Positions 13,608 to 29,114 are shown, counted from the stretch's first letter. The stretch: DNA of 64,000 bases from an uncultured Bacteroidales bacterium (GCA_902774275.1 CACYHN010000010.1:7074-71073), one strand, 5' to 3'. Notes: generated by a model from the letters alone, not told the origin. Numbers and translations are program-made.

Positions 13608-14489
13608 ATGTCTATATCTATAAAAGGCTTAAGCCATTATTACCCTAACGGCAAGAGAGCGCTGACCGATATTAACCTGGAGATACCTTCAGGCATGTTC
13701 GGCCTTTTGGGACCGAACGGTGCCGGAAAATCCACTCTGATGCGTATTCTGGTTACGTTGATGGAACCCACGGAGGGGCAGATTGATGTGTGTGGATATG
13801 ATATACGCACGCAACGCAAGGAGGTGAGACGCATATTGGGTTATCTGCCACAGGATTTCCGTTTCTTTGCCAAGTACAAGGTGCGTGAATTCCTGGAGTA
13901 TGCTGCTGCACTTACGGGTATGACTAATTCTTCAGAGCGCGGCAAGGCTGTTGACGCCATGCTGGAGCAGGTGGGGCTTTATGAAGCACGTGACCGTTAT
14001 GCACAGAATCTGTCGGGTGGTATGAAGAGACGTCTGGGTATTGCACAGGCTCTCATACACAAGCCTCAGATCCTGGTGGTGGATGAGCCTACTACAGGAC
14101 TTGACCCGGAGGAGCGCATTAGGTTCCGTAACCTGCTTAGTGAGGCCAGCTCAAAGGACACCACGATAATCCTGTCAACACATATAGTAGGTGATATCTC
14201 AAGTTCATGTACGGAGATGGCCATGCTCAATCAGGGCCAGGTCATGTTCAGAGGGTCACCTGCCGGAATGCTCAAGGAGACTGAGGGTAAGGTTTGGCGC
14301 ATGCAGGTAACCAATGAGCAGTATGCTGAGATAAACCAGAAATACGCAGTGATTTCAACCATACCGCATGGTTTGGGATGGGATCTGCAGGTGGTGGCCA
14401 AGGAATCACCCGGTTATGGTGCAGTGAGTTATCCTCCAAATCTGGAGCATGCATATGTATATTTTACTGAAATCAGGGATAAGGAGTGA
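13608..14489 (+). CDS. ABC transporter ATP-binding protein (stand-alone NBD)
   Basis: 293 aa with Walker A GPNGAGKST, signature LSGGMKRR, Walker B ILVVDEPT and H-loop STHI. It is clearly paralogous to the C-terminal domain of the 23589-28286 ORF. Shared strings include SGMFGLLGPNGAGKST, ERIRFRNLL, KVW and PNLE.AY. Confidence 0.92.
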   Translation: MSISIKGLSHYYPNGKRALTDINLEIPSGMFGLLGPNGAGKSTLMRILVTLMEPTEGQIDVCGYDIRTQRKEVRRILGYLPQDFRFFAKYKVREFLEYAAALTGMTNSSERGKAVDAMLEQVGLYEARDRYAQNLSGGMKRRLGIAQALIHKPQILVVDEPTTGLDPEERIRFRNLLSEASSKDTTIILSTHIVGDISSSCTEMAMLNQGQVMFRGSPAGMLKETEGKVWRMQVTNEQYAEINQKYAVISTIPHGLGWDLQVVAKESPGYGAVSYPPNLEHAYVYFTEIRDKE

Positions 14490-17400: not shown

Positions 17401-17875
17401 TGAGTTCATTTATGAGGGTTTCTCTGACTGGCGTACATACAGCCAGTGGACACTGGTGATAAACCAGAACTTTTACGGTGATTATATACGCTCGGCATAT
17501 ATCATATCCCCGGGTGACGGCTCCCAGTATGCACGATGGAAAATTCCTTTGACTGCTGCAGGAGTCTATGACGTATATTACTACGCGTCTCCGGATATGT
17601 CTGACAACAATAATCGTAACCGTAGGTGGAACAACAATAATAACAATAACAACAATGGCCGCAGGGTTACCAATGACTATAACTTTGAGATAGGGCAGTT
17701 CAACTCAAGTGACCGTGTCTCAATGAACATGTGGCGTGCCGATGAGGGATGGAATCTTTTGGGTACGTTCCGTTTTGAGGCGGATACAGTGAAGGTTACG
17801 CTGAACAACAAATCAGGCGTAAACGTGATTGTGGCTGATGCCGTCAAGTTGGTTAAGAGAGAAAATTCCCGTTAA
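14489..17875 (+). CDS. Large membrane protein: N-terminal ABC-2-type permease-like module (about 7 TM) fused to an ~850-aa extracytoplasmic region (M1-aminopeptidase-like layout, no HExxH) and a C-terminal golvesin-C/CBM-like domain
   Basis: The ATG at 14489 overlaps the upstream TGA by 1 nt (GTG at 14486 is an alternative start). Multiple hydrophobic helices occupy residues ~20-280. The extracytoplasmic part contains no HExxH; the only H-E strings are IHERGY and AHETHR. The C-terminus (YARWKIPLTAAGVYDVYYY ... VIVADAVKLVK) resembles golvesin C-terminal-like domains. A poly-Asn insert lies at ~17603-17665. Confidence 0.6.
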   Translation: MMLGLYNIRIVSKYETKLLVRGWFFKVFAFLSLLAALILGSIYILTQFPQPQMINRSVIPYMFMLIMNVGQAVVSVFLASEYLKRDKQLDTSEVFYTRPLSNAEYLLGKMWATLKVFFILDLIVAAIALVMSLVKYGFALDYLSYIWYFLLLSVPTLVFIVGLSTTLMLILNNQAITMVILLAYIGVTLFYIDNLYYYLFDYIGFNLPMLKSMITGFSGLGRLINHRLCYLLLGIGLILTDVSLFHRLANSRYSLLPWRIAAVLFLAGGLYAGYRHVHLYKVDERFRADMVELNNRFVNVGSAVAQSCELTVTQSGDSLSVRADMTVSPRQDDTQLVFTLNPGFNITSISATGHKVSFERLMHLIILKFEDNLHADEPVKIVMEYSGNADERICYLDIQADKLIENSKVLSMLNIGKRYLFQDKEFTMLTPESYWYPRPGVAYSDQSPEWQMSYFTDFNISVTPNPGLTPISQGMCMVNADSTTYTFTPESSLPSVSLIIGDYTPKSITVDSTVYTVWELGHWNDMFETFDSIRDTIPIVLRDIRRNMEFSADMAYPFKRFNIVEVPAHFTSYKRVWTSVYENLQPEMVLIHERGYDMRQFQFENMKRMYGFGGRFNRRNTDMSEKEILYNILYSAMSFMMQSNSFSGSSRNGQFSMTQVDNPYYYGPLFYNFRYNIYSSNWPMANRMVETVTNSAGSGTSEWMRRMNGLSEDEKALILMGKYGFDRIMSDPEWEDLADNALALKTRDFFAPVSAVMGYETMVDSITARSRAKEFTNSSFDSILDWVQSYSGVDLTDKIESWNQPARLACFKVGTPQITTVTTDTADIYQAEIAFENISDNPGYVNVEFVFYEIENAGDEDKPTSMTVSVGAHETHRLVTHWFNSPGLIRVNTMLSSNLPHDVTLNSADWSTYTGTELIPEGVYAVRGGVDNALPGEIIVDNEDSELFSLSRPLRTGYLSKWIDKSREKNNEFIYEGFSDWRTYSQWTLVINQNFYGDYIRSAYIISPGDGSQYARWKIPLTAAGVYDVYYYASPDMSDNNNRNRRWNNNNNNNNNGRRVTNDYNFEIGQFNSSDRVSMNMWRADEGWNLLGTFRFEADTVKVTLNNKSGVNVIVADAVKLVKRENSR

Positions 17876-17895: not shown

Positions 17896-19398
17896 ATGAT
17901 AAAAAGAGATTTTTTAAAGAAGGCAGTTCTTGTGCTTGCAGCCGCCTCGGCCATAGAGACCGGAGCGCAGGCGCAGATTGTCATGACCATGGAGCAGGCT
18001 CTTGAGTACAGTGCCCAGCATAATCCCGATCTGATTAACTCCCGTATGAGTATGGAGCGGTATGAGCAGAACCTGATAGCCCAGAAGGCATCACTCAAGT
18101 CCAGGTTCTCACTTAACCTGGAGCCTCTCTCTTACTCACAGTCCCGTCAGTTTGACAGCCGTTATTCAGACTGGTACACCAACCGCTCGCTGTCATCATC
18201 GGGAACATTCAGTATATCGCAACCCATTATCTGGACCGATGCTACGTTGTCACTCAACAACAGCCTGTCATGGCAGAACAATGAATCGTCAATAGGAGGT
18301 AATACTAACAGCAACCGTGCATTCAGTAACCGTCTTTACCTGAGTCTGACGCAGCCGATATTCACTTACAACAAGACTAAGATGAATATGCGCCAGATAG
18401 AGATGAATTATGAGAATGCCCGCATAAGTTATGCTTTGCAGATGCTGAATGTGGAGCGTAACATAACAAGTCAGTTCTACAGCCTGTTCGTATCACAGCA
18501 GAACCTTGCAATAAGTGAGTCGGAGCTGGAGAATGCAGAGAAGAACTTCAATATAATAAAGGATAAGGTTGATGCTGACCTTGTGACCAAGGATGAGTAC
18601 TATCAGGCAGAACTCAACCTGGCCCAGTCTCGTTCAAGCCTGGAGAACCAGAGGGTGAGCCTTGAGAATGCCAAGGATAATTTCAAACAGGCGCTTGGCA
18701 TACCTCTTGAGGAGGATATCATCGTGGTTTGCGATATCGAGGCTGATCCGGTATATGTGGATATCAACAAAGCTCTTGAGAGCGCCACTACCACCAGACT
18801 GGAACTGCGTCAGCGCCAGATATCGCGTGAGCAGCAGGAGATGTCTATGGTGCAGGTCAAGGATAATGACAGCTTTAGCGGAAATATCTCACTTTCATTG
18901 GGTATCATGGGTGATAGCGAGGATTTCAATCATGTTTATGACAATCCCACCAACAACCCGCGTATAGCTATCTCATTCAGTGTACCTATCTTTGACTGGG
19001 GCGCACGTAAGGCACGTATCAAGGCTGCTGAGATAGAACGCAAGATGTTTGAGCTTAGTGCCGAGGAGGAGCTTAAGAGCATAGAGATGAACGTACGCAG
19101 CACATGCCGTAGCCTGGATAACCTGCTGGGGCAGATATCCATAGCAGAGCAGAGCCAGAAGAACGCACAGCTTACCTATGACCTCAATGAGGAGCGTTAC
19201 CGTAACGGTGAGCTTACGGGTATGCAGATGAACCAGTTCCAGACTCAGCTTTCCAACAGCAAGATGTCATATACACAGGCTATCATAAACTACAAGGTTC
19301 AGCTTCTTAATCTCAAGATACTGACACTTTATGATTTTGAGAAGGATGAGCCGGTGGCTCCCATGACATATGAAAAGAGTAACGACAAAAAGAAATAA
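17896..19398 (+). CDS. TolC-family outer membrane efflux protein
   Basis: 500 aa with a signal peptide (AAASAIETGAQAQ) and two repeats of the OEP-type coiled/beta pattern. The N-terminal segment MEQALEYSAQHNPDL and repeated RYRNGE-like helices are typical. Confidence 0.85.
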   Translation: MIKRDFLKKAVLVLAAASAIETGAQAQIVMTMEQALEYSAQHNPDLINSRMSMERYEQNLIAQKASLKSRFSLNLEPLSYSQSRQFDSRYSDWYTNRSLSSSGTFSISQPIIWTDATLSLNNSLSWQNNESSIGGNTNSNRAFSNRLYLSLTQPIFTYNKTKMNMRQIEMNYENARISYALQMLNVERNITSQFYSLFVSQQNLAISESELENAEKNFNIIKDKVDADLVTKDEYYQAELNLAQSRSSLENQRVSLENAKDNFKQALGIPLEEDIIVVCDIEADPVYVDINKALESATTTRLELRQRQISREQQEMSMVQVKDNDSFSGNISLSLGIMGDSEDFNHVYDNPTNNPRIAISFSVPIFDWGARKARIKAAEIERKMFELSAEEELKSIEMNVRSTCRSLDNLLGQISIAEQSQKNAQLTYDLNEERYRNGELTGMQMNQFQTQLSNSKMSYTQAIINYKVQLLNLKILTLYDFEKDEPVAPMTYEKSNDKKK

Positions 19399-19403
19399 TA
19401 AAA

Positions 19404-20474
19404 ATGAAACAGCATATGAAATCAGGAATCAGCGTACTTACACTGACTGCACTTACACTCCTTATGGCAGGGTGCAGGCAAGAGAACACTATGAACCGTA
19501 ATGAGATACCCACACCGGTATCTGTATCTGACATTACCTATGGATCCGTAAGCAGGATCTTTACCACAAACAGCACGGCTGTGTCAAGTGCCGAGGCTGA
19601 ATTGTCAACTGAGATGGCCGGTAAGTATCATCTCCAGAACAACCCTGCCACCGGTAAGCCTTATAAACTGGGTGACAAGGTCAAGAAAGGCGCCTTGATA
19701 GTACGTATTGAGGATAAGTCATATGAGAACGGCATATCAATAGAGACCAAACGTCTGAACCTGGAGCTGGCTGAGCAGGAGCAGGTCAAGACAAAATCCT
19801 TGTATGACAAGGGGGGGGCCACACTTACTGAGGTCAAGAACTCGGATATCAAGATCATGAATTCACGTCTGGACTATGAGAATGCCCAGATGAATCTTGA
19901 GAAGATGAACATCCGTGCTCCGTTTGACGGCGTGATAGTGAATCTTCCGCATTACTCAAAGGAGGCCAAGGTTAACAGCGGTACATCAGTGGTGACCATC
20001 ATGGATTACAGCTCCATGCTGCTTGAGATCAATCTGCCTGAGAGTGCCATCAATGAGGTGAAAGTGGGCCAGAAGGCTTACATCACTCATTATACTCTGC
20101 CTAAGGACACTATCATGGGTGAGATTACTGAGCTTTCTCCGGCTATCAGCGCTGAGACCCGTACATTTAAAGGTAAGCTTATGATTGATAACAGCAAGCT
20201 GCTTATCAGGCCGGGTATGTTCGTAAAGGCCGATATCGTTACTGAGAGCCACAGCTCAACTATCGTGATACCCAAGAACATTGTACGTAACGAGCGTAAC
20301 AGACGTACCGTGTTTGTTGTTGACCAGGGTATAGCCGTTGCAAAGCAGGTAAGGCTGGGATTGGAAGAGAAGAACAGCGTAGAGGTTCTGAGCGGTCTTG
20401 ATAAGGACGATCAGCTGATTGTACGCGGTTTTGAGACCCTGAGAGACGGTTCAAAGGTTAAGATCCAAAGATAA
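19404..20474 (+). CDS. Efflux RND transporter periplasmic adaptor subunit (MFP/HlyD family), lipoprotein
   Basis: 356 aa with lipobox LLMAGC, a biotinyl-lipoyl-like segment (KGALIVRIED), a coiled-coil hairpin, beta-barrel and MP domains (IRAPFDGVIV, VVDQGIAVAKQVRLG). Confidence 0.88.
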   Translation: MKQHMKSGISVLTLTALTLLMAGCRQENTMNRNEIPTPVSVSDITYGSVSRIFTTNSTAVSSAEAELSTEMAGKYHLQNNPATGKPYKLGDKVKKGALIVRIEDKSYENGISIETKRLNLELAEQEQVKTKSLYDKGGATLTEVKNSDIKIMNSRLDYENAQMNLEKMNIRAPFDGVIVNLPHYSKEAKVNSGTSVVTIMDYSSMLLEINLPESAINEVKVGQKAYITHYTLPKDTIMGEITELSPAISAETRTFKGKLMIDNSKLLIRPGMFVKADIVTESHSSTIVIPKNIVRNERNRRTVFVVDQGIAVAKQVRLGLEEKNSVEVLSGLDKDDQLIVRGFETLRDGSKVKIQR

Positions 20475-20487
20475 CACAGAGAAAAGG

Positions 20488-23400
20488 ATGAAAAGACTGG
20501 TTAGTTGGGCGGTCAGGAATCCGGTCACTGTCACTATGGCGGTGCTGGCCATTCTGCTGCTCGGAAAGATATCATATGACAGGCTGAGCGTGGAGCTGCT
20601 TCCAAGCATGAACAGCCCCCGCCTGTTTGTTGAGATAGACGCTGGCGAGCGTCCGCCAGAAGAGATTGAGAAACAGTTCGTGCGCAGCATGGAGTCTCAG
20701 ATTGCCCGTCAGAGTGACGTGCGCAATGTATCATCGGTAGTTAAGGTGGGTACAGCCAGACTGACGGTAGAGTACGCATGGAGAAAGAATATGGATGAGG
20801 CGTTCCTGGATCTGGAGAAGGCCATGAGCAGTTTCTCTCAGGACAGCCGTGTGACAGACCTCAGAATCTCCCAGAAGGATCCTACCACTGCTCCCATAAT
20901 GATAATAGGTTTCTCCAATCCGGATATCGCCGATATGGCCGAGCTCCGCAAGGTGGCTGACTCATATGTGTGCAATGAACTGATGAGGGTTGAGGGTGTG
21001 GCTGATGTGTCACTGGCAGGCGATGAGTTTACCAACTTGGTGATAGAGGCTGATCCTTACAAACTGCAGGCTTTTGGCATAACCGTTGAGAACATATCGT
21101 CACGTATCCAGGAGAACAACCAGAGGGTATCGGGCGGAAGGATAACGGAACAGGGTTACCAGTATCTTGTGACCGGTTCAAATACGCTGACTGATGAGAC
21201 TGCATTCGGTAATATCATAGTAGGATACAAGAATACCGAGTCTGCACAGCCGGGAGCGCAGCAGGTGGGTGAGTTTGCATCGGCAAGCATGGCACCTATC
21301 TATCTGCGTGACGTGGCAACCATACACTTTGAGAACCGTGAACCGGAGAACATTGTAAGGGTTAACGGCAACCGCAGTATTGGCATCTCTGTATTCAAGG
21401 AGATGGATTACAATACTGTAAAGGCTGTTGAAGGTATAAAGACCAGTCTTACCAAGATACAGAAGTCGCTGCCCGGATATGATTTCAGGATAATAAGTGA
21501 CCAGGCCACTTTCATTAACGATTCAATAGGTGAGGTCAAGAACAGCGCCATGCTGGGTATCCTGCTGGCGGTGATAGTACTGTTCGTGTTCCTGCGCAGG
21601 GTGGGGACAACCCTTATCGTGGCCGTTTCAATACCTGTTTCCATAATAGCCACTTTCAACCTGATGTTCTTTAGCGGACTTACCATTAACATCCTTACGT
21701 TGGGAGGTCTTGCGCTTGGAGCGGGTATGCTGGTGGATAATGCCATTGTGGTTATCGAGAGTATATTCAGGAATCAGGAACGCGGCCTTTCAGTGCGTGA
21801 TGCCGCAATTACAGGTACATCTGAGGTGGGTGGTGCCGTATCGGCATCAACTCTTACTACCATTGTGGTATTCCTGCCTATAGTCTATCTGCACGGTGCT
21901 ACGGGTGAACTTTTCAAGGATGAGGCGTGGACTGTTACGTTCTCACTTCTCTCATCACTGTTTGTAGCTATCCTGGTGATACCTACGCTGTATGAGCGTA
22001 TATTCGGCAGGAAGAAGGTTGCTCCGCTCAAGAACTTCAGTTCAGTGAACATAAAGGGGTACTCTTCATTCCTTAAGAAACTTGTGGAGAAGCGTTGGTG
22101 GGTGATCTTGTGCTCAGTAATCCTGGTGGCAGGAACCATATTCCTGCTGCCTTATGTGGGTACCGAGTTCATGCCCAAGACTGATGCCAATACCATAAAC
22201 GTGAAGATCCGTATGGCTGAAGGTACAAGCCTGGACCGTACGTCATCTACCCTTGAGAACCTGGAGAATCTGGTGTTTGACCTGTCTGAGGATCCTGAGT
22301 GTGTGATATACACTCATGTGGGACCGGGTGCATCGGCACAGAACATGGATTTTGAGGGTGAGAATACTGCTACCATGAAGATTCAGCTCTCTAACGCGTC
22401 AGCAGTTTCTCCTGATTATCTCACGGAGGTGCTGGCTGCCTATATAGACGGCGTGGAGGGTATGGAACTTTCATTTACCCAGGATGACAACTCGCTGGGT
22501 TCACTGATGGGTACTGAGGATGCTCCTCTTGTAGTTGAGATAAAGGGTGAGGATCTGGATCTGCTGGCTTCACTGACAGATCAGGTTAAAGCTGCTGTTG
22601 ACTCAATTGACTGCCTGTATAATGTTGAGAGCTCGCTGGCTGGCGGTGCACCTGAAATCATCATCACGGTTGACCGTGCCCTGGCCGGTATGAACAACAT
22701 AAACGTATCAACCATAATCACACAGATACAGCAGCACTTGGCCGGTCGTGAAGCCGGACAGATGGACTACAAGGGTGATATGAGAGATATCAGCATCAAG
22801 GTTCCGGGCGTGTCTCTGGCAGACCTTAACAGTATGGTCATAACATCGGGCCAGAAGGATTTCCGTCTTGTTGAGCTGGCCCAGATAAGTGAGAGTACTG
22901 CACCAAAGGAGATTTATCGTCTCAATCAGAACCGTGTGACACGCGTTACGGCCGATATCGATGAGTCAGTATCACTTGATAAAGCTGCTCAGAGAGTAAG
23001 AGACGCCGTATCAGGAATAGAACTGCCGCAGAACTACTCCATTAACGTGACAGGTGAGGAGGAGCGCCGAGCAGAGTCCATGAATAGCCTACTGTTGGCA
23101 CTCGTGCTCTCTATCGTGCTGGTATATATGGTCATGGCATCGCAGTTTGAATCACTGCTGCATCCGTTTACCATCCTCCTTACCATTCCTCTGGCTTTGG
23201 TGGGCGCGGTACTGATGTTCCTCATCACAGGTATAACGGTGAATATCATGGGTATCATAGGTATGGTGATGCTGGCCGGTATCGCGGTAAACAACTCCAT
23301 CATCCTGGTGGACCGTATAGGACAGCTCAAGGAGTCAGGTCTGAGCCTTACCGATGCCATAGCAGAGGCAGGGCAGCAGCGTATCCGTCCTATCCTGATG

Positions 23401-23589
23401 ACCAGTCTTACCACAATCCTGGCACTTGTGCCAATGGCACTCGGACTGGGTGATGGCGCATCACTGAGTTCACCTATGGCAATTGCCGTGATAGGCGGTC
23501 TTTTCACTTCAACTCTTTTGAGTCTGGTTGTGATACCTTGTGTTTATTATGTATTTGAAAGCGCCAAAATAAGAATCACTGGAAAGTAA
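20488..23589 (+). CDS. Efflux RND transporter permease subunit (AcrB/AcrD/AcrF superfamily), paralog 1
   Basis: 1033 aa with 12-TM AcrB architecture. The TM4 motif is GAGMLVDNAIVVIE, the TM10 motif is AGIAVNNSIILVD, and the TM11 region is RIRPILMTSLTT. Confidence 0.92.
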   Translation: MKRLVSWAVRNPVTVTMAVLAILLLGKISYDRLSVELLPSMNSPRLFVEIDAGERPPEEIEKQFVRSMESQIARQSDVRNVSSVVKVGTARLTVEYAWRKNMDEAFLDLEKAMSSFSQDSRVTDLRISQKDPTTAPIMIIGFSNPDIADMAELRKVADSYVCNELMRVEGVADVSLAGDEFTNLVIEADPYKLQAFGITVENISSRIQENNQRVSGGRITEQGYQYLVTGSNTLTDETAFGNIIVGYKNTESAQPGAQQVGEFASASMAPIYLRDVATIHFENREPENIVRVNGNRSIGISVFKEMDYNTVKAVEGIKTSLTKIQKSLPGYDFRIISDQATFINDSIGEVKNSAMLGILLAVIVLFVFLRRVGTTLIVAVSIPVSIIATFNLMFFSGLTINILTLGGLALGAGMLVDNAIVVIESIFRNQERGLSVRDAAITGTSEVGGAVSASTLTTIVVFLPIVYLHGATGELFKDEAWTVTFSLLSSLFVAILVIPTLYERIFGRKKVAPLKNFSSVNIKGYSSFLKKLVEKRWWVILCSVILVAGTIFLLPYVGTEFMPKTDANTINVKIRMAEGTSLDRTSSTLENLENLVFDLSEDPECVIYTHVGPGASAQNMDFEGENTATMKIQLSNASAVSPDYLTEVLAAYIDGVEGMELSFTQDDNSLGSLMGTEDAPLVVEIKGEDLDLLASLTDQVKAAVDSIDCLYNVESSLAGGAPEIIITVDRALAGMNNINVSTIITQIQQHLAGREAGQMDYKGDMRDISIKVPGVSLADLNSMVITSGQKDFRLVELAQISESTAPKEIYRLNQNRVTRVTADIDESVSLDKAAQRVRDAVSGIELPQNYSINVTGEEERRAESMNSLLLALVLSIVLVYMVMASQFESLLHPFTILLTIPLALVGAVLMFLITGITVNIMGIIGMVMLAGIAVNNSIILVDRIGQLKESGLSLTDAIAEAGQQRIRPILMTSLTTILALVPMALGLGDGASLSSPMAIAVIGGLFTSTLLSLVVIPCVYYVFESAKIRITGK

Positions 23590-26500
23590 TGAAGTCATTT
23601 ATTGACAGAAGGGTAACTATCTGCATGCTTCTGGTGGCGCTCACGCTGCTGGGCTATTTCTCGTACAAGCAGTTGCCGGTTGAGTTGCTGCCCAATACTG
23701 AGTTGCCTCAGCTTTATATTACCGCCTCGTCCAGAAGTGACCTCACTCCGTCTTATATGGAGCAGCAGGTGGTAATCCCGCTTGAAGGAGCCATAAGCGC
23801 TGTAGGTGGTGTGGAGAACATGGAATCAACGGTATCGGGCCGACAGGGTTCCATCAGGGTTGATTTCAAGAGAGGCACCAATCTCAAGATGACCACCGTG
23901 AAACTGCAGGAGAAGATAAGCTCCATACGGGGCGATTTTCCATCGGATGTCACGGTGAATGTCCAGCAGGCTAACCTCAATGGCATAAGTAACCAGTTCA
24001 TGTCACTGCAGGTGCGCGGATCAGGTGGTGTTGACCGTCTGAGAGCCATCGTTGACAAGGATGTGGTACCTCGTTTGGAGAGTATAGACGGCATAGCAGG
24101 TGTAACTGTTTATGGTGGTCGTGTCAAATCCATAGAGATACGCTCCAACCCGGAGGCTATGCAGGCATTGCACATATCCAATGCACAGATAAGCCAGGCA
24201 TTGAGCCAGTATAATCAGGAGCGTACTTTCCTGGGCTTTATAAGTGAGCCTGACAAAAAATACTATGTGCAGCTTGACGCCAACTATGATGATGTGTCAC
24301 AGGTGGAGAACCTGGTGGTTGCCAATGGACCTGTATACCTTAAGAATGTGGCCACGGTGTTCTTTGACTATAAGGAAGAGACTACCATAAGCCGTGTTAA
24401 CGGTATGGATGCCATCTCCGTATCTTTGGTCAACGGTGCCGGAGAGAATCTTCTTGAACTCTCCAATAGAGCCCTTAAGCGTATTGATGAGATAAACCGT
24501 GAAGTGGCCAACCAGGATTTGCAGCTTGTGGTGCAGTCAAACTCGGCAGACCAGATAAGCAACAACATATCACAGATAGTCAAATTGGCTTTGATGGGTG
24601 GTATGCTGGCTATTCTGGTGCTCTGGTTTTTCCTGCGCAACCTGAGTCTGGTATTCTTTATTGCATTGTCAATACCTGTCTCAATATTATCGGCATTCAA
24701 TGTATTTTATGCTGCAGATATATCCATAAACACCCTTACCCTTATAGGTATGGCGCTGGCTATAGGTATGTTGTTGGATAGCAGTATAGTTGTGCTGGAG
24801 AACATATACCGTCTGGCTTCCATGGGAATGCCGCCGCGATTGGCGGCTCTGCAGGGCGTAAAGGAGGTGCGTAAGGCGCTCTTGGCATCAACACTTACTA
24901 CAATAACTGTGTTCCTGCCGTTTGTGTTCTCTGATGAGCCGATGATCAAACTATTGGGTAGGAATATAGGCTTTTCAATCATCTCTACGCTGATATTCTC
25001 ACTCTTGGTGGCTGTAACGTTCATACCTATGGCAACTGCTGCCATGATGGAACGCGGCGGAGGCGGCAACAGCGTCTTCTTCCGTAAGATGTCCATTCAT
25101 GACCGTCCGCTGCAGATGTATTCAACGCTGCTCAAGACCTGTCTGCGCAAGCCCGGACCAACGGTCGGCACTGCGGTTGCCGTTCTGGTTATTGCATTCA
25201 TATTCGCTCTGTCGCGCAATACCGGTCAGAACCGTCAGGTGGACAGTGACAGGATCAATATCAACATCACCATGCCAAGCGGCAGCACTCTTGATGATAC
25301 TGATGAGGCGACGGCAACTCTTGAGTCACGTTTGGATAGCCTGCCTCAGAAAAAGGATGTGATAAGCCGCATTCAGGAAGATCAGGCCTCAATTACCTTG
25401 ACTCTACAGGATGGTTATAACAAAAAGGGTGGTGTAACCATAAGCCAACTTGTTGAACAGCTGAGTGATGAGCTTACTCTTGATGGCGATATAGACGTGC
25501 GTGTTACTCCAGGCTATGCCCGTGGAAACCAGAGTGCATCAGGACTCAGTTCACTGACACGTTTCATGAGCGTTCTGGGCGTGGGTGACAATACGGAGAG
25601 AATAGTTGTCAAGGGTTCTGATACCGAGACCATGCGTGTGGTTTCCAATAACCTAAGGTATTATCTGGAACAGTTGGAGTTTGTTCGTGACGTTAGGGTT
25701 GACAATCCCGGTGGACGTCGTGAGGTACAGCTTACCTTTGATCCTGTAGCGTTGGCATCATACAATATCACCAACCAGGCAATTACACAGGCTCTGGGTT
25801 CCCTGAACCGTACCACCAGTACCGGTACCAGCTTCAAGGTGGGTACTGATGAGTATGACATTGTCATAATGGATGATATCACTGAGGAAGAGGAGGAGAT
25901 GGCACGCTGGGAGAAAACCATGGATGACCTGCGTCGTGTCATTGTTACTGATGCAAACGGCGGTACTCATGAGCTGCAGCAGATAGCAAGCATCCGCCTG
26001 AGCCGTGGCCCGTCGGAAGTAAGGCGTGTTAACCGTGACCGCCGTGTAAATGTAACATACGCCATTTCGCAGAGTGAGGATCTGCCTAAAGATGTGCTTG
26101 ATGATTATCATGACCAAATTGATGACCTGATAGCCAATTACAACCTGCCTTCAGGCCTGGCTCTTGAGGTTCAGCGCGGTGATGACTCTACCAGTGAGTT
26201 CAAGTTCCTGATATTGGCATCTATCATACTGATATTCATGATACTGGCATCGGCCTTTGAGTCACTTACCACACCTCTGGTACTGCTGTTCTCCATACCG
26301 TTGGCAGCCATTGGCTCATTGCTGGCGCTGCTGCTGTCAGGCAACAGCCTGATGAATGCCAATACCCTGACTGGATTCCTTATCCTGCTGGGTATAGTGG
26401 TTAACAACGGTATCATCCTGATAGACTACTCATCTACATTACGCCGCAGAGGCTATGGCCGTATGAGAGCTATCATGACCAGCGGTTATTCACGTCTCAG

Positions 26501-28286
26501 GCCTATCTGCATAACCACCATCACTACCATCGTTACGCTTATTCCCATGGCTATGGGTGATGATGAGTATGCCGGTGCCATAGGCGCTCCGTTTGCGCTT
26601 ACCGTAATAGGCGGACTCACGTTCTCTGCCATACTTACACTGCTGCTCATACCTACGCTCTACATATCATTTGAGAATATGAGGGCCTGGTATAAGGGCT
26701 TGGGCCGCTATACCCATATCCTGCATGCCATATTGTTCATTGTGGGTCTGATAGTGATCTTTACAAGTGTGGACGGAGTGTTCATGATACTTCTTTATAT
26801 AATCATTCTGTCTGTTGCCATTCCTGGAGTGACATATTTCATAAAGAGCTCTGTAAGGATAGCACGTAAGGATATCGTAAAGGAGAATGAGCCTATTGTC
26901 ATTGAGGTGCGTAACCTTGTCAAGGTATATGACTGGTACAGCCTGTTCCTGCGCCAGTGGCGTAGCGGACTGAACATACGCCGCAGGTTAGGGCTTTCAC
27001 GCAGCTTCCATCACGCAAAGGATTTTATAAGCCTGTTGTGGCAGGTTGTGGTGTTCGGATATACAGGATATCTGGCCGGATGGTACTTTGAGAAGGAGTT
27101 CTGGATACTGCTTATGACCATCATTACGCTGGCTGGCATAAACAATATACTTAAGGCTGTTCTGGAGTATATTGGATACAAGTTCAAGAGTGGAGCAAGA
27201 GCAGTATTAATTATAAAGAAGATTCTCTACTGGGCATTGCCGATATGTGCAATGATATTCCTCAGCCACAAGATTGAGAGCAAGGGATTCATGGTCTTCA
27301 TTGCGGTTGTCTGGATTCTTGGACTCTGCATCCGCAAGACATCTGACTATCTCTATGCAAACAATATAAACGTGGAGCGTCTTAAGGGTGAGACCGCCGG
27401 AATGCGTCGGGCATGGTTCGTGTTCGTTAAGAGCATTCCTATCATCGGCAAACGCAAGAAACCGTTCAAGGCTCTGCGTGGCGTCACGTTTGAGATTCAC
27501 AGCGGTATGTTCGGCTTGCTTGGCCCCAATGGAGCCGGTAAATCCACGTTCATGCGCATAGTTACCGGTATCCTGCGCCAAAGCTACGGAACGGTGTTCA
27601 TCAACGGCATGGATACCCTCAAGTACAGGGAGGAGTTGCAGAGCCTTATCGGATTCCTGCCTCAGGAGTTCGGTATGTATGAGTCCATGAGCGCGTGGGA
27701 TTTCCTCAACTATCAGGCTATCCTTAAGGGTATTACTGATGAGAAAACGCGTCGTGAGAGACTGGAGTACGTGCTTACATCGGTACATATGTATGAACAG
27801 CGTAACTCTGAGATAGGTTCATTCTCCGGCGGTATGAAGCAGCGCATAGGCATTGCACTCATCCTGCTTAACCTGCCGCGGATCCTTGTGGTCGATGAGC
27901 CTACTGCAGGTCTTGATCCAAGAGAGCGCATCAGGTTCCGTAACCTGCTGGTTGAGTTGAGCCGTGACCGTATAGTGATATTCTCTACCCATATCATTGA
28001 GGATATAGCCAGCTCATGTAATCAGGTTGTGGTCATTGAAAAGGGCTCGCTCAAGTATTTTGGCCTGCCTTCTGAGATGATAAATCTGGCTAAGGACAAG
28101 GTATGGCTGTTTGACATTGAGGCATCACGCTTAGCTGAGCTGGATGAGAAGCTTATTGCAAATCATATCCAGGATGGTGACAAGATCAAGGTGCGTTACA
28201 TATCGCCAGTATGCCCATGGCCTGGTGCTGAGCTTGCTGAGCCAAACCTTGAGGATGCATACCTATGCTTATTGAAAAACCTTTAA
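23589..28286 (+). CDS. Chimeric protein: complete RND permease (aa ~1-1040) + 2 TM helices + ABC nucleotide-binding domain split by a ~180-aa insertion of about 4 TM helices
   Basis: One uninterrupted 1565-codon ORF; its ATG overlaps the upstream TAA by 1 nt. RND motifs are AIGMLLDSSIVVLEN, LGIVVNNGIILID and RLRPICITT. NBD motifs are IVIEVRNLVKVY (beta1), GPNGAGKST, FSGGMKQR, ILVVDEPT and STHI. Confidence 0.8.
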   Translation: MKSFIDRRVTICMLLVALTLLGYFSYKQLPVELLPNTELPQLYITASSRSDLTPSYMEQQVVIPLEGAISAVGGVENMESTVSGRQGSIRVDFKRGTNLKMTTVKLQEKISSIRGDFPSDVTVNVQQANLNGISNQFMSLQVRGSGGVDRLRAIVDKDVVPRLESIDGIAGVTVYGGRVKSIEIRSNPEAMQALHISNAQISQALSQYNQERTFLGFISEPDKKYYVQLDANYDDVSQVENLVVANGPVYLKNVATVFFDYKEETTISRVNGMDAISVSLVNGAGENLLELSNRALKRIDEINREVANQDLQLVVQSNSADQISNNISQIVKLALMGGMLAILVLWFFLRNLSLVFFIALSIPVSILSAFNVFYAADISINTLTLIGMALAIGMLLDSSIVVLENIYRLASMGMPPRLAALQGVKEVRKALLASTLTTITVFLPFVFSDEPMIKLLGRNIGFSIISTLIFSLLVAVTFIPMATAAMMERGGGGNSVFFRKMSIHDRPLQMYSTLLKTCLRKPGPTVGTAVAVLVIAFIFALSRNTGQNRQVDSDRININITMPSGSTLDDTDEATATLESRLDSLPQKKDVISRIQEDQASITLTLQDGYNKKGGVTISQLVEQLSDELTLDGDIDVRVTPGYARGNQSASGLSSLTRFMSVLGVGDNTERIVVKGSDTETMRVVSNNLRYYLEQLEFVRDVRVDNPGGRREVQLTFDPVALASYNITNQAITQALGSLNRTTSTGTSFKVGTDEYDIVIMDDITEEEEEMARWEKTMDDLRRVIVTDANGGTHELQQIASIRLSRGPSEVRRVNRDRRVNVTYAISQSEDLPKDVLDDYHDQIDDLIANYNLPSGLALEVQRGDDSTSEFKFLILASIILIFMILASAFESLTTPLVLLFSIPLAAIGSLLALLLSGNSLMNANTLTGFLILLGIVVNNGIILIDYSSTLRRRGYGRMRAIMTSGYSRLRPICITTITTIVTLIPMAMGDDEYAGAIGAPFALTVIGGLTFSAILTLLLIPTLYISFENMRAWYKGLGRYTHILHAILFIVGLIVIFTSVDGVFMILLYIIILSVAIPGVTYFIKSSVRIARKDIVKENEPIVIEVRNLVKVYDWYSLFLRQWRSGLNIRRRLGLSRSFHHAKDFISLLWQVVVFGYTGYLAGWYFEKEFWILLMTIITLAGINNILKAVLEYIGYKFKSGARAVLIIKKILYWALPICAMIFLSHKIESKGFMVFIAVVWILGLCIRKTSDYLYANNINVERLKGETAGMRRAWFVFVKSIPIIGKRKKPFKALRGVTFEIHSGMFGLLGPNGAGKSTFMRIVTGILRQSYGTVFINGMDTLKYREELQSLIGFLPQEFGMYESMSAWDFLNYQAILKGITDEKTRRERLEYVLTSVHMYEQRNSEIGSFSGGMKQRIGIALILLNLPRILVVDEPTAGLDPRERIRFRNLLVELSRDRIVIFSTHIIEDIASSCNQVVVIEKGSLKYFGLPSEMINLAKDKVWLFDIEASRLAELDEKLIANHIQDGDKIKVRYISPVCPWPGAELAEPNLEDAYLCLLKNL

Positions 28287-28301: not shown

Positions 28302-29018
28302 ATGTCAGCATTAGATACAGTTAAATCTTTCGGTAAGTTGTGCGGTTACAATATGAGGATCATATTTTCCGGCAAGTTCATCTGGTTCCTGCTGGTGGGC
28401 CTGGCCCTGTTTTTCTTCCTCATGTTCTCAGCAGCATCCAGAGGCACGGAGTTGAGTCACAGTATGGTTTACGGCCAGCTTACCATACCGGGCCTGCTGC
28501 TGGTGTTCTATCCGGCATGTTTCGGAATTCAGAATGATGCTGATCACCGTATCCTGGAACTCCTGTTCGGCATACCTAACTACATGTATAAGGTATGGCT
28601 GTTCCGCCTGGTGATGATATATGTGGAGGTATATCTAATTCTTGTGGTATACGCCTTCCTGGCCAGGATCCTGCTCTATCCGGTACAACCGTTCATAATG
28701 GCGGCGCACCTTATGATTCCGGTCATGCTGTTCGGTAACCTGGCATTCCTGTACTCAACGCTCATCCGCAACGGAAACGCTGCCGCCGTACTCTCTGTAC
28801 TCACGGTGATACTGGCGCTGATTCTTGGTAATACTCAGCTTGTTGAGAACAAGGTATGGGATGTAACCATAAACCCGTATGAGGAGCCGGAGAACATCAA
28901 TGCTGCCATCTGGAGCGTAATCCTGCTAAAGAACCGCATCCTCATGGTAGTAGCCGGCATCATCTTCCTGATGTCAGGCCTGCTAGGCCTACAGAACCGC
29001 GGCAAGTTCCTGGGATGA
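28302..29018 (+). CDS. Integral membrane protein, ABC-2-type permease-like (about 6 TM)
   Basis: 238 aa, very hydrophobic, with about six predicted helices. It is the last gene of the operon, 15 nt after the chimera. I recognised no specific family motif. Confidence 0.55.
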   Translation: MSALDTVKSFGKLCGYNMRIIFSGKFIWFLLVGLALFFFLMFSAASRGTELSHSMVYGQLTIPGLLLVFYPACFGIQNDADHRILELLFGIPNYMYKVWLFRLVMIYVEVYLILVVYAFLARILLYPVQPFIMAAHLMIPVMLFGNLAFLYSTLIRNGNAAAVLSVLTVILALILGNTQLVENKVWDVTINPYEEPENINAAIWSVILLKNRILMVVAGIIFLMSGLLGLQNRGKFLG

Positions 29019-29044: not shown

Positions 29045-29077
29045 GGCCATCCGGTGCGTAGAAGAGCCCGCGTCATT

Positions 29078-29110
29078 AAAAGACCTTCGGAATTTCTCCG
29101 AAGGTCTTTT
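29078..29110. terminator. Bidirectional intrinsic terminator between the convergent operon end (+) and purM (-)
   Basis: The 11-bp perfect stem is agaccttcgga (29081-29091) / tccgaaggtct (29097-29107) with loop atttc. It is flanked by aaa upstream and tttt downstream. Confidence 0.85.
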
Positions 29111-29114
29111 ATAA

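What the first reader, a model, noticed from the sequence alone, without database searches (positions are those of the whole stretch)
23589..28286. Single ORF fusing a complete RND permease to an ABC ATPase domain
The 1565-codon ORF has no stop. Residues ~1-1040 form a full 12-TM AcrB-type permease, collinear with the upstream 1033-aa paralog and ending ...LLIPTLYISFENM. The chain then continues with two hydrophobic helices (HILHAILFIVGLIVIFTSV; FMILLYIIILSVAIPGVTYFI). Next comes the first beta-strand of an ABC NBD (IVIEVRNLVKVY, ~26893-26931). A ~180-aa insertion follows (~26932-27468) with about four more helices (LLWQVVVFGYTGYLAGWYF; FWILLMTIITLAGINNIL; ILYWALPICAMIFL; FMVFIAVVWILGLCI). The rest is a canonical NBD: Walker A GPNGAGKST, signature FSGGMKQR, Walker B ILVVDEPT with the catalytic Glu, and H-loop STHI. 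The RND C-terminus is cytoplasmic, and 2 + 4 extra helices keep the NBD cytoplasmic, so the topology is self-consistent. RND pumps are proton-motive-force antiporters and ABC domains hydrolyse ATP. I am not aware of a characterised covalent coupling of the two in one polypeptide, but I cannot search to confirm this.
Basis: partly seen in the sequence, partly recalled or inferred. Interest (0 to 1): 0.85.

Follow-up and report, generated by a model that had tools for sequence, protein, structure and literature searches.

The report
Conserved RND efflux pump–ABC ATPase fusion
One 1565-residue gene really does join a complete proton-type (RND) efflux pump subunit to an ATP-burning ABC motor through six extra membrane helices; the same architecture is kept in every related Bacteroidia genome examined and I found no paper that describes it.

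Summary
ORF 23589-28286 is open for 1565 codons. Pfam finds a full-length ACR_tran domain (residues 2-1028) and an ABC_tran domain (1296-1440).

It is not an assembly artefact. The identical protein lies on three contigs, and in 68 of 68 related genome loci with enough upstream DNA the frame stays open for 1555-1616 codons.

Strand beta1, with its invariant Lys and Tyr, is separated from the rest by a four-helix membrane insertion. AlphaFold models beta1 as a paired strand (mean pLDDT 84.9).

All ATPase motifs are invariant in 69 orthologues. Both RND paralogues lack two canonical proton-relay residues (AcrB D408 and K940).

The gene sits in a conserved seven-gene operon: ABC ATPase, ABC-2 permease with a large extracytoplasmic domain, TolC-like channel, adaptor, RND1, the fusion, and a 238-residue six-helix protein.

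Best reading (inferred): an ABC-2-type exporter tethered to a two-paralogue RND tripartite pump.

Less likely but not excluded: ATP drives or gates the RND itself.

Databases label the protein only "efflux RND transporter permease subunit". Nine literature searches found no description.

The parts
23589..28286 (+). Whole fusion ORF, 1565 aa (RND2::ABC). Its ATG overlaps the TAA stop of RND1 (TAATG).
   Evidence: Frame open in 68 of 68 related loci. Exact protein present in public collections.
23589..26678 (+). Complete RND permease module (residues 1-1030).
   Evidence: Pfam ACR_tran 2-1028, E 8.9e-165. Best solved relative is MdtB 9lyq_B, E 3.6e-71.
24771..24803 (+). TM4 relay motif LLDSSIVVLEN. 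The AcrB D407 equivalent is kept; the D408 equivalent is Ser (Asn in 62 and Ser in 7 of 69 orthologues, never Asp).
   Evidence: Alignment to MdtB and MexB-type chains; column counts.
26391..26429 (+). TM10 motif GIVVNNGIILIDY. The AcrB K940 equivalent is Asn in 69 of 69 orthologues. An invariant Asp lies 7 residues later.
26712..26846 (+). Extra membrane hairpin TMa/TMb after the cytoplasmic RND C-terminus, with a 4-residue periplasmic turn.
   Evidence: AF2 helices 11-31 and 35-60. Hydropathy and charge bias in 69 orthologues. Length from hairpin start to beta1 is 72 aa in 67 of 69.
26847..26894 (+). Cytoplasmic linker of 16 residues. It falls in the lowest-confidence stretch of the model and is poorly conserved.
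   Evidence: pLDDT 73 and 59 for C-terminal residues 51-70. 33% mean identity.
26895..26933 (+). Detached first beta strand of the ABC domain (IVIEVRNLVKVYD), with invariant Lys1112 and Tyr1114. I take the Tyr to be the A-loop aromatic.
   Evidence: DSSP strand 76-85 in the AF2 model. K and Y invariant in 69 of 69 and in 84 homologues. Matches the pattern of ISIKGLSHYY at the start of the 13608 ATPase.
26934..27023 (+). Strongly basic segment with an amphipathic helix (mean 8.3 Lys+Arg), leading back to the membrane.
27024..27338 (+). Four-helix membrane insertion (two tight hairpins) inside the beta1-beta2 turn of the ABC domain.
   Evidence: AF2 helices 114-137, 141-169, 171-199, 203-228 with pLDDT 75-90. 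Length from beta1 to Walker A is 196-202 aa in 68 of 69, at only 25% identity. No structural match in the PDB.
27339..27464 (+). Basic return segment from the membrane to strand beta2 (mean 10.3 Lys+Arg).
27465..28085 (+). ABC nucleotide-binding core from beta2 on. Walker A 27522-27548, Q-loop LPQEFG, signature 27822-27845, Walker B plus catalytic Glu 27882-27899, D-loop, H-loop His 27990-27992.
   Evidence: Pfam ABC_tran. NCBIfam best ABC matches are GldA and DrrA types. Foldseek top matches are TM_1403 (4yer), with NosF, ABCA1/3/4/7 and LptB among the best 50. The catalytic residues of all motifs are invariant in 69 orthologues. 78% mean identity, the best conserved part of the protein.
28086..28286 (+). 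C-terminal beta-rich domain of the ATPase, plus the stop codon. Shared with the free-standing 13608 ATPase.
28302..29018 (+). 238-aa six-helix membrane protein; candidate ABC-2-type permease partner of the fused ATPase. Most conserved motif: FYPxVFGIQNDxDxRILEILFGIPNYRYKVW between TM2 and TM3.
   Evidence: A homologue follows the fusion in 75 loci, most within 30 nt of its stop. Alignment A3. ABC2_membrane_3 hit in 9 of 43 members, best E 1.6e-5. AF2 model of low confidence and fold search uninformative.
20488..23589 (+). RND1, unfused 1033-aa RND paralogue with the same non-canonical relay (VDNA in TM4, VNNS in TM10).
   Evidence: Conserved directly upstream of the fusion in the loci printed.
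19404..20474 (+). Periplasmic adaptor (membrane fusion protein).
   Evidence: Pfam HlyD_D23, HlyD_3. Conserved position.
17896..19398 (+). TolC-like outer membrane factor.
   Evidence: Pfam OEP, E 1e-47. Conserved position.
14486..17875 (+). 1129-aa protein: N-terminal ABC-2-like permease (about 280 aa), then a large extracytoplasmic part with remote M1-peptidase-like similarity, then a Golvesin_C domain.
   Evidence: Family scan: ABC2_membrane_2 in 14 of 21, ABC2_membrane_4 in 7 of 21, Peptidase_M1 in 5 of 21, Golvesin_C in 21 of 21. Its C-terminus lies directly upstream of the TolC gene in most loci printed. NCBI names it 'hypothetical' or 'xanthan lyase'.
13608..14489 (+). Free-standing ABC ATPase, 42% identical to the fused one from beta2 to the C-terminus. 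Its stop overlaps the start of the 1129-aa permease.
   Evidence: Homologue in the same position in the distant locus L082.
29077..29111 (.). 15-bp-stem hairpin between the operon end and the convergent gene 29129-30292; likely terminator.

Best explanation
Shown. The gene encodes one polypeptide with these parts in order:
- a complete RND permease;
- a two-helix membrane hairpin;
- a short flexible cytoplasmic linker;
- strand beta1 of an ABC ATPase;
- a four-helix membrane insertion;
- the rest of a catalytically intact ABC-2/DrrA/GldA-type ATPase.

It is the sixth gene of a conserved seven-gene operon: ABC ATPase, ABC-2 permease with a large extracytoplasmic domain, TolC-like channel, adaptor, RND1, RND2::ABC, small six-helix protein.

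Inferred.
1. The fused ATPase works as ABC ATPases normally do. It dimerises and drives an ABC-2-type membrane module, whose most likely membrane partner is the 238-aa protein encoded directly downstream.
2. The six extra helices pin that ATPase to the membrane next to the RND2 transmembrane domain.
3. The ATP-driven module therefore assembles in fixed proximity and stoichiometry with the RND1/RND2-adaptor-TolC pump.
4. The ABC module would move a still unknown, probably amphiphilic, substrate out of the cytoplasm or the inner leaflet. The RND tripartite pump would then take it across the periplasm and outer membrane. This would be a hard-wired version of the known cooperation between inner-membrane exporters and tripartite RND pumps.
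5. Two RND paralogues with one adaptor suggest an MdtBC-like heterotrimer. One arrangement is two copies of the fusion per trimer. The other is one copy that pairs with the free 13608 ATPase and its permease. Either would supply the ATPase dimer.
For: The fusion is real and selected.
- Open frame in 68 of 68 loci. The loci come from Bacteroidaceae, Tannerellaceae, Dysgonomonadaceae, Rikenellaceae, Muribaculaceae and Prolixibacteraceae, and include cultured strains and a complete genome.
- The exact protein is found on several contigs.

The ATPase is intact.
- The catalytic residues of every motif are invariant in 69 orthologues.
- The ATPase core is the best conserved segment, at 78% identity.
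- The confident AF2 model has beta1 as a paired strand.
- The fold matches ABC-2-type ATPases.

The helices look like anchors rather than a substrate pathway.
- Sequence identity is 25-33%, while length is nearly fixed.
- Periplasmic turns are 4-5 residues.
- Positive-inside bias is strong.

There is a candidate cognate permease.
- A homologue of the 238-aa protein follows the fusion in 75 loci, most within 30 nt of its stop.
- ABC-2 family hits occur in some members.
- The secondary-structure pattern is an N-terminal amphipathic helix, six long helices, and the most conserved motif on a short helix between TM2 and TM3.

The operon is a unit.
- The order 1129-aa protein, TolC, adaptor, RND1, fusion, 238-aa protein holds in the loci printed.
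- The free ATPase precedes the 1129-aa permease in a 43%-identical relative.
- Gene junctions overlap or are short, and a hairpin follows the last gene.

The linker module is specific to this context. Among 1.84 billion representatives it gave 80 hits. All 17 hits longer than 1500 aa, bar one weak multi-stretch match, are 1550-1585 aa and carry the module behind an RND at about residue 1024-1302.

Cooperation between inner-membrane exporters and tripartite pumps is established (abstract of PMC4338810, seen). Heterotrimeric MdtBC is the known precedent for two RND genes in one operon (PMC8277102).
Against: - No experiment or multimer model links the fused ATPase to the 238-aa protein.
- That protein has no Pfam hit of its own and no sequence relative in the PDB.
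- Profile comparison with the 1129-aa permease is not significant.
- Its AF2 model is poor (pLDDT 60.5) and the fold search is uninformative.
- An RND trimer does not obviously supply an ATPase dimer.
- Both RND paralogues lack two residues that are essential for proton coupling in AcrB. That fits the rival better, in which ATP rather than the proton gradient energises the RND.
- The substrate is unknown.
Confidence: 0.5

Rival explanations
1. ATP-energised or ATP-gated RND pump. The attached ATPase acts on the RND itself. Nucleotide-dependent movements pass through the six-helix bundle into the RND transmembrane domain. They replace or supplement a proton relay that this RND pair has lost.
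For: - Both RND paralogues have Asn or Ser at the AcrB D408 position and Asn at the K940 position, in 69 of 69 fusions and in every RND1 whose motifs were read.
- An ordinary RND gene about 4.5 kb from the operon in Bacteroides faecis keeps VVDDAIVV and AAKNAILIVEF.
- TM8-12, which lies next to the attachment point, is the best conserved RND segment at 70% identity.
- The linker module is found only behind an RND.
Against: - The RND1 paralogue has the same relay but no ATPase.
- The D407, R971 and T978 equivalents and an invariant TM10 Asp remain, so a different proton or cation relay is possible. Other RND families use other relays (my knowledge of CusA and MmpL3).
- The 16-residue linker is poorly conserved and falls in the lowest-confidence stretch of the model, which is not what a force-transmitting element looks like.
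- An ABC-2-type partner gene is always adjacent.
- No known mechanism couples an ATPase dimer to a trimeric rotary RND.
Confidence: 0.17
2. One heterodimeric ABC-2 transporter built from both ATPases and both permeases. That is, the fused ATPase with the 238-aa protein, plus the 13608 ATPase with the 1129-aa permease, docked on a 2:1 RND1:RND2 heterotrimer. This is a specific stoichiometric version of the best explanation.
For: - The two ATPases are full-length paralogues, 42% identical including the C-terminal domain.
- Both ATPase-permease pairs flank the RND genes in one conserved operon.
- A 2:1 heterotrimer is the known MdtB2C arrangement (my knowledge; the heterotrimer is cited in PMC8277102). 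It would leave exactly one fused ATPase in need of a partner.
Against: - Both ATPases have fully canonical motifs, with no degenerate site of the kind common in obligate heterodimers.
- Each ATPase-permease pair has the usual layout of a homodimeric ABC-2 system.
- The two permeases are not detectably homologous.
Confidence: 0.2
3. Artefact or decaying gene: an assembly join, a missed frameshift, or a recent fusion with no function.
For: - Some relatives appear split: L001, L086/L087 and L084/L085.
- The best-120 list held only proteins of 931 aa or less.
Against: - L001 is a contig in which RND1 is also called as two genes, so I read both splits as assembly frameshifts (inference).
- L086 and L087 carry runs of N at the junction.
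- Only L084/L085 has a real in-frame stop.
- Full-length proteins of 1545-1575 aa are in the collection from cultured strains of Bacteroides faecis, Tannerella forsythia and Prolixibacter.
- 68 of 68 loci are open, and the ATPase is the most conserved part.
Confidence: 0.02

Closest known systems
MdtABC-TolC (heterotrimeric RND pump of Enterobacteria)
   Same: One adaptor gene is followed by two diverged RND permease genes. MdtB is the best solved relative of the RND part (9lyq_B). MdtC and MdtB models are among the best NCBIfam matches. A TolC-type channel is used.
   Different: - No Mdt subunit carries an ATPase or extra helices.
- MdtB and the MexB-type chain keep the Asp-Asp and Lys relay in the alignments; both paralogues here have Asp-Asn/Ser and Asn.
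- Scores lie far below the curated cut-offs (285 vs 1774 bits for MdtC).
- The TolC gene is inside this operon.
MacAB-TolC (ABC-type tripartite efflux pump)
   Same: An ATP-driven inner-membrane component works with an adaptor and a TolC-like channel. The MacB ATPase is among the structural matches of the fused ATPase (5lj6).
   Different: MacB has an N-terminal ATPase, four FtsX-type helices and its own periplasmic domain. Here no FtsX or MacB periplasmic domain is found. The periplasmic machinery is a complete RND porter. The ATPase is C-terminal and interrupted by membrane helices.
ABC-2 (type V) exporters with separate ATPase and six-helix permease: DrrAB, NosFY, GldAFG, Wzm-Wzt
   Same: - The ATPase subfamily matches: GldA 1.1e-50 and DrrA 5.1e-49 in NCBIfam; the ABC-2 type ATPase TM_1403 as top structural match and NosF among the best 50.
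- The gene order is ATPase then small permease.
- The C-terminal extra domain is present.
   Different: In those systems the ATPase is a soluble, contiguous protein. Here it is fused behind an RND permease, and strand beta1 is separated from strand beta2 by about 180 residues that include four membrane helices. That arrangement had no match in the PDB fold search.
Functional cooperation of single-component inner-membrane exporters with tripartite RND pumps
   Same: The proposed two-stage logic: one transporter brings the substrate to the periplasmic side and the RND complex expels it across the outer membrane (abstract of PMC4338810, seen).
   Different: Known cases involve separate, independently encoded proteins with no physical link. 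Here the two machines are one polypeptide in one operon.

Membership tests
RND superfamily, AcrB/HAE-1-like permease | Full-length match to the ACR_tran profile (12 helices, two large periplasmic loops) | tested here: met
   ACR_tran 2-1028, model 3-1020 of 1021, E 8.9e-165.
RND superfamily, AcrB/HAE-1-like permease | Proton relay Asp407-Asp408 (TM4) and Lys940 (TM10), AcrB numbering | tested here: not met
   TM4 LLDSS and TM10 VVNNG align to VVDDA/VKKNA of MdtB and LVDDA/SAKNA of the MexB-type chain. Asn or Ser and Asn in 69 of 69 orthologues. The D407, R971 and T978 equivalents are kept.
RND superfamily, AcrB/HAE-1-like permease | Score above the curated cut-off of a named NCBIfam RND subfamily | tested here: not met
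   Best is RND_permease_2 with 482.8 bits against a cut-off of 1250.
RND superfamily, AcrB/HAE-1-like permease | Encoded with a periplasmic adaptor and an outer membrane factor | tested here: met
   OEP at 17896-19398 and HlyD-type adaptor at 19404-20474. Conserved order in the loci printed.
ABC ATPase (nucleotide-binding domain) | Walker A, Q-loop, LSGGQ-type signature, Walker B with catalytic Glu, D-loop, H-loop | tested here: met
   All present. The catalytic residues of each motif are invariant in 69 orthologues. ABC_tran E 1.1e-24.
ABC ATPase (nucleotide-binding domain) | One contiguous domain of about 200-250 residues | tested here: not met
   Strand beta1 (1103-1115) lies about 180 residues before strand beta2 (from 1293), with four membrane helices between. 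The AF2 model still shows beta1 as a paired strand.
ABC-2 (type V) exporter | Cognate six-helix ABC-2 family permease | tested here: inconclusive
   The 238-aa downstream protein has no Pfam hit of its own. ABC2_membrane_3 hits in 9 of 43 and ABC2_membrane_2 in 4 of 43 homologues. No PDB sequence hit. AF2 pLDDT 60.5 and a meaningless fold search.
ABC-2 (type V) exporter | ATPase dimer with two membrane domains | not testable with these tools
   No multimer prediction is available, and model coordinates cannot be inspected.
MdtBC-type heterotrimeric RND | Two diverged RND genes after one adaptor gene | tested here: met
   RND1 and RND2 are about 27% identical and adjacent in the loci printed.
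MdtBC-type heterotrimeric RND | Mixed trimer of the two subunits | not testable with these tools
   Needs biochemistry or a multimer model.
MacB-type tripartite ABC pump | FtsX-type four-helix membrane domain with MacB periplasmic core domain | tested here: not met
   No FtsX or MacB_PCD hit in the fusion or its neighbours at E <= 0.001.

The most novel reading that the evidence does not exclude
This may be an RND efflux pump that runs on ATP. The two RND paralogues have lost the Asp408 and Lys940 proton-relay residues. They would be driven or gated by the ATPase that is wired into RND2 through a six-helix bundle, with strand beta1 acting as a latch between the RND tail and the ATPase. It would be the first primary-active member of a superfamily defined as proton-motive-force antiporters.
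Probability: 0.15. Interest if true: 0.95.

Novelty: new variant of a known kind. Interest (0 to 1): 0.72.

Why it matters
Tripartite efflux systems are classified by their energy source: RND and MFS pumps use the proton gradient and ABC pumps use ATP (PMC8277102). Here one conserved polypeptide carries both kinds of machine.

It occurs in gut, rumen, oral and sediment Bacteroidia, including Bacteroides faecis, Parabacteroides massiliensis and the periodontal pathogen Tannerella forsythia.

If the ABC module feeds the RND pump, this is a natural, hard-wired example of two-stage export across both membranes. It would be a handle for finding the substrate of a widespread, unannotated seven-gene envelope system.

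If ATP acts on the RND itself, it would overturn the assumption that RND transporters are strictly secondary transporters.

The ATPase interrupted by four membrane helices in its first hairpin is also a topology with no match in the PDB fold search.

Cultured, genetically tractable hosts exist, so the question can be tested directly.

Tried and rejected
1. The homologue search with the C-terminal 536 aa listed no protein longer than 931 aa, which suggested a split RND.
   - Rejected. The longest case, L001, is a contig in which RND1 is also called as two genes, so I read both splits as frameshifts.
   - Full-length proteins are in the collection.
   - All loci are open.
2. Apparent unfused relatives.
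   - P0102 touches a contig end.
   - P0055 sits on scaffold gaps.
   - Only P0114 (L084/L085) has a real in-frame stop. That case is unresolved.
3. Structure of the 238-aa protein.
   - Only 82-93% identical homologues were listed.
   - The shallow alignment gave pLDDT 60.5, and the fold search was meaningless.
4. Profile comparison of the 238-aa family with the 1129-aa family was not significant: probability 0.24 as printed, E 0.26.
5. A PDB sequence search with the 238-aa profile gave nothing.
6. The fold search of the C-terminal model matched only the ATPase part. The six-helix part has no solved counterpart.
8. Nine literature searches found no description of an RND-ABC fusion. Two papers were read, with the same result.
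9. The sigma-70 promoter scan is not informative for Bacteroidia. Only the terminator hairpin was used.

Full report
OBSERVATION

The ORF 23589..28286 on the + strand is open for 1565 codons. Pfam finds a full-length AcrB-type domain (ACR_tran, residues 2-1028, model positions 3-1020 of 1021, E 8.9e-165). It also finds an ABC ATPase domain (ABC_tran, 1296-1440, E 1.1e-24).

- the RND part ends at 26678;
- two hydrophobic helices lie at 26712-26846;
- the strand IVIEVRNLVKVYD is at 26895-26933;
- a four-helix stretch is at 27024-27338;
- Walker A is at 27522-27548;
- the signature is at 27822-27845;
- Walker B with the catalytic Glu is at 27882-27899;
- the H-loop His is at 27990-27992.

The upstream 1033-aa protein (20488-23589) is a second complete RND permease. 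It is only about 27% identical to the RND part of the fusion. Its TAA stop overlaps the ATG of the fusion.

IS IT REAL?

A scan of one genome per GTDB species with an alignment of the C-terminal 536 residues returned 80 loci at 49-93% identity.
- Rumen and gut Bacteroidaceae are represented.
- Cultured strains include Bacteroides faecis MAJ27, B. faecichinchillae JCM 17102, Parabacteroides massiliensis, Tannerella forsythia, Maribellus luteus, Draconibacterium mangrovi, Mariniphaga sediminis and Prolixibacter bellariivorans ATCC BAA-1284.
- The complete genome of Gaoshiqia hydrogeniformans is included.
- Proteiniphilum, Fermentimonas, Rikenellaceae and Muribaculaceae are also present.

In all 68 loci with enough upstream DNA the frame that carries the ATPase stays open for 1555-1616 codons.

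The exact 1565-aa window protein is on three contigs, in a cluster of 441 sequences. Of the 15 members listed, 13 are 1553-1569 aa and two are short fragments. The B. faecis orthologue is on 52 contigs, including a 6.3-Mb genome.

The first homologue list held only proteins of 931 aa or less. These turned out to be fragments. In the longest case (L001) RND1 is also called as two genes, so I read both splits as assembly frameshifts.

ANATOMY OF THE JUNCTION

The free-standing ATPase at 13608-14489 aligns with the fused one from residue 17 to 284, against C-terminal residues 265-530, at 42% identity. Its first 16 residues (MSISIKGLSHYYPNGK) correspond in pattern to IVIEVRNLVKVYD. The fused domain is therefore an ordinary ATPase whose beta1-beta2 turn has been opened by about 180 residues.

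An AlphaFold2 model of the last 536 residues, built from 84 homologues, has mean pLDDT 84.9 and pTM 0.65. Its elements in C-terminal numbering are:
- a helical hairpin (11-31, 35-60);
- a low-confidence stretch (blocks 51-70, pLDDT 73 and 59) that includes the linker;
- a strand at 76-85;
- an amphipathic helix (90-104);
- four long helices (114-228);
- a canonical ATPase with a C-terminal beta domain.

DSSP a strand. The only other strands in the model lie in the ATPase part, so beta1 is most likely modelled back in the ATPase sheet. This is an inference, because coordinates could not be inspected.

Foldseek against the PDB matches only the ATPase part. The top match is the ABC-2 type ATPase TM_1403 (4yer); NosF, ABCA1/3/4/7 and LptB are also among the best 50. 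Nothing matches the helical part.

Across 69 full-length orthologues:
- the Lys and Tyr of beta1 and the catalytic residues of every ATPase motif are invariant;
- the ATPase core is the best conserved segment (78% mean identity to the window among 62 distant orthologues);
- RND TM8-12 follows at 70% and beta1 at 66%;
- the extra helices are only 25-33% identical, yet their lengths are almost fixed (72 residues in 67 of 69; 196-202 in 68 of 69);
- the three periplasmic turns are 4-5 residues with 0.1-0.5 Lys+Arg on average, while the cytoplasmic segments carry 2.1-10.3.

A phmmer search with the 268-residue linker module against 1.84 billion representatives found only 80 hits. All 17 hits longer than 1500 aa, bar one weak multi-stretch match (P0490, 1824 aa), are 1550-1585 aa and carry the module at about residues 1024-1302. 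Among proteins long enough to judge, the module is thus seen only behind an RND.

CONTEXT

tblastn of the window proteins against the loci shows a conserved order in the loci printed: 1129-aa protein, TolC-like channel, adaptor, RND1, fusion, 238-aa protein (the middle of that output was cut).

In a 43%-identical relative on a 220-kb contig, a 298-aa ABC ATPase also precedes the large protein. The unit therefore has seven genes.

The 1129-aa family shows ABC-2 permease hits in 14 of 21 members, remote M1-peptidase hits in 5 of 21, and a Golvesin_C domain in all.

The 238-aa protein follows the fusion in 75 loci, most within 30 nt of its stop. Further points about it:
- Its most conserved motif (FYPxVFGIQNDxDxRILEILFGIPNYRYKVW) lies between the second and third helices.
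- ABC2_membrane_3 is hit by 9 of 43 members, best E 1.6e-5.
- It has no Pfam hit of its own and no relative in the PDB.
- Its model was poor (pLDDT 60.5).

Its assignment as an ABC-2 permease is therefore likely but not shown.

A 15-bp-stem hairpin follows it.

PROTON RELAY

Aligned to MdtB and a MexB-type chain, TM4 of the fusion reads LLDSS where they read VVDDA and LVDDA. TM10 reads VVNNG where they read VKKNA and SAKNA. The AcrB D408 equivalent is Asn or Ser, and the K940 equivalent is Asn, in 69 of 69 orthologues. The D407, R971 and T978 equivalents and a TM10 Asp are invariant.

RND1 has the same pattern (VDNA, VNNS) in the window and in every locus where both motifs were read.

An unrelated RND gene about 4.5 kb from the operon in B. 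faecis keeps VVDDAIVV and AAKNAILIVEF. The non-canonical relay is thus a property of this operon's RND pair, not of the organisms.

HOW IT MOST LIKELY WORKS

Shown:
- a single conserved chain with an intact ATPase pinned to the membrane next to an RND permease;
- an operon with a TolC-like channel, one adaptor, a second RND, a second ATPase and two candidate ABC-2 permeases.

Inferred:
- The fused ATPase drives an ABC-2-type module, most probably with the 238-aa protein.
- The six helices serve to tether that module to the RND1/RND2-adaptor-TolC pump.
- An unknown, probably amphiphilic, substrate is then handed from the ATP-driven step at the inner membrane to the RND step across the periplasm and outer membrane.

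Three things favour a tether over a force-transmitting link:
- the poorly conserved linker, which falls in the lowest-confidence stretch of the model;
- the low sequence but strict length conservation of the helices;
- the minimal periplasmic turns.

The ATPase dimer could come from two fusion subunits in a mixed RND trimer. It could also come from pairing with the 13608 ATPase. Neither can be tested here. I give this reading about 0.5.

The main rival, at about 0.15-0.2, is that ATP acts on the RND itself. The missing relay residues are the main argument for it.

An artefact or a dead gene is essentially excluded.

COMPARISON AND NOVELTY

The system resembles three known kinds:
- MdtABC (two RND genes and one adaptor);
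- MacAB-TolC (an ATP-driven tripartite pump);
- ABC-2 exporters (the ATPase subfamily, and the gene order ATPase then small permease).

It fails defining features of each. It lacks the Asp-Asp/Lys relay and scores below every curated RND cut-off. It has no FtsX or MacB domain. Its ATPase is not contiguous.

Public databases hold the proteins under automatic names only. Nine full-text searches found no description of an RND-ABC fusion. Neither did targeted term searches in a Bacteroides transporter census (PMC6281302) or in the first 300,000 characters held of a tripartite-pump review (PMC8277102). The searched library does not cover most subscription journals, and TCDB could not be consulted, so prior notice cannot be excluded.

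I class it as a new variant of known kinds, with high interest. It is a widespread, conserved, experimentally tractable hybrid of the two main energy classes of efflux machinery.

UNRESOLVED

One lineage (L084/L085; 6 contigs, a cluster of 51 sequences) has a single in-frame TGA and a diverged segment just after beta1. This gives a 1130-aa RND-hairpin-beta1 protein and a 419-aa four-helix-ATPase protein. It may be a pseudogene. It may also be a genuine split that would need beta1 to complement the ATPase in trans.

Noticed in passing
L085:2428-7260 and L084:5315-7260: In one lineage (6 contigs, a cluster of 51 sequences) the orthologue is interrupted by a single in-frame TGA, followed by a diverged, longer segment where the basic amphipathic helix should be. 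The RND-hairpin-beta1 part (1130 aa) and the four-helix-ATPase part (419 aa) are called as separate genes. This is either a pseudogene or a natural split that leaves strand beta1 on the RND chain.
   Followed up: partly
L086:about 5960-6004 and L087:about 960-990: Two independent scaffolds of another relative carry runs of N exactly at the beta1 coding stretch. Gene callers therefore report a false split of the fusion into 1115 + 461 aa.
   Followed up: yes
L001:494-7132: On this 613-kb metagenome contig RND1 is called as 463 + 176 aa and the fusion as 652 + 931 aa with overlapping ends. I read this as assembly frameshifts. In L024 the RND1 match is likewise broken into two pieces. This explains the short 'homologues'.
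   Followed up: partly
window 14486-17875: The 1129-aa operon protein combines an ABC-2-like permease with about 850 extracytoplasmic residues. These show only remote M1-peptidase-like similarity (no HEXXH motif seen) and a Golvesin_C domain. NCBI calls relatives 'xanthan lyase' or 'hypothetical'. Its role and ligand are unknown.
   Followed up: partly
window 17600-17665: Low-complexity tract SDNNNRNRRWNNNNNNNNNGRR (nine consecutive Asn) inside the Golvesin_C region of the 1129-aa protein.
   Followed up: no
L017:16149-19256: Bacteroides faecis has an ordinary RND permease about 4.5 kb downstream of the operon, with the canonical VVDDAIVV and AAKNAILIVEF motifs. It is a useful internal contrast to the Asp-Asn/Asn relay of the operon's two RNDs.
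   Followed up: yes
window 10885-13527: An 880-aa protein with CelD_N and glycoside hydrolase family 9 domains lies just upstream of the operon. Whether it is linked to the operon in other genomes could not be seen, because the fetched flanks end inside the 1129-aa gene.
   Followed up: no
window 29077-29111: Perfect 15-bp-stem hairpin between the end of the operon and the convergent AIR-synthase-related gene (29129-30292); probably a bidirectional terminator.
   Followed up: no
(method): The word-indexed homologue search listed only fragments (931 aa or less) among its best 120. Yet full-length 1545-1575-aa orthologues are in the same collection. Hit lengths from that list alone would have wrongly suggested a half-RND fusion.
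   Followed up: yes
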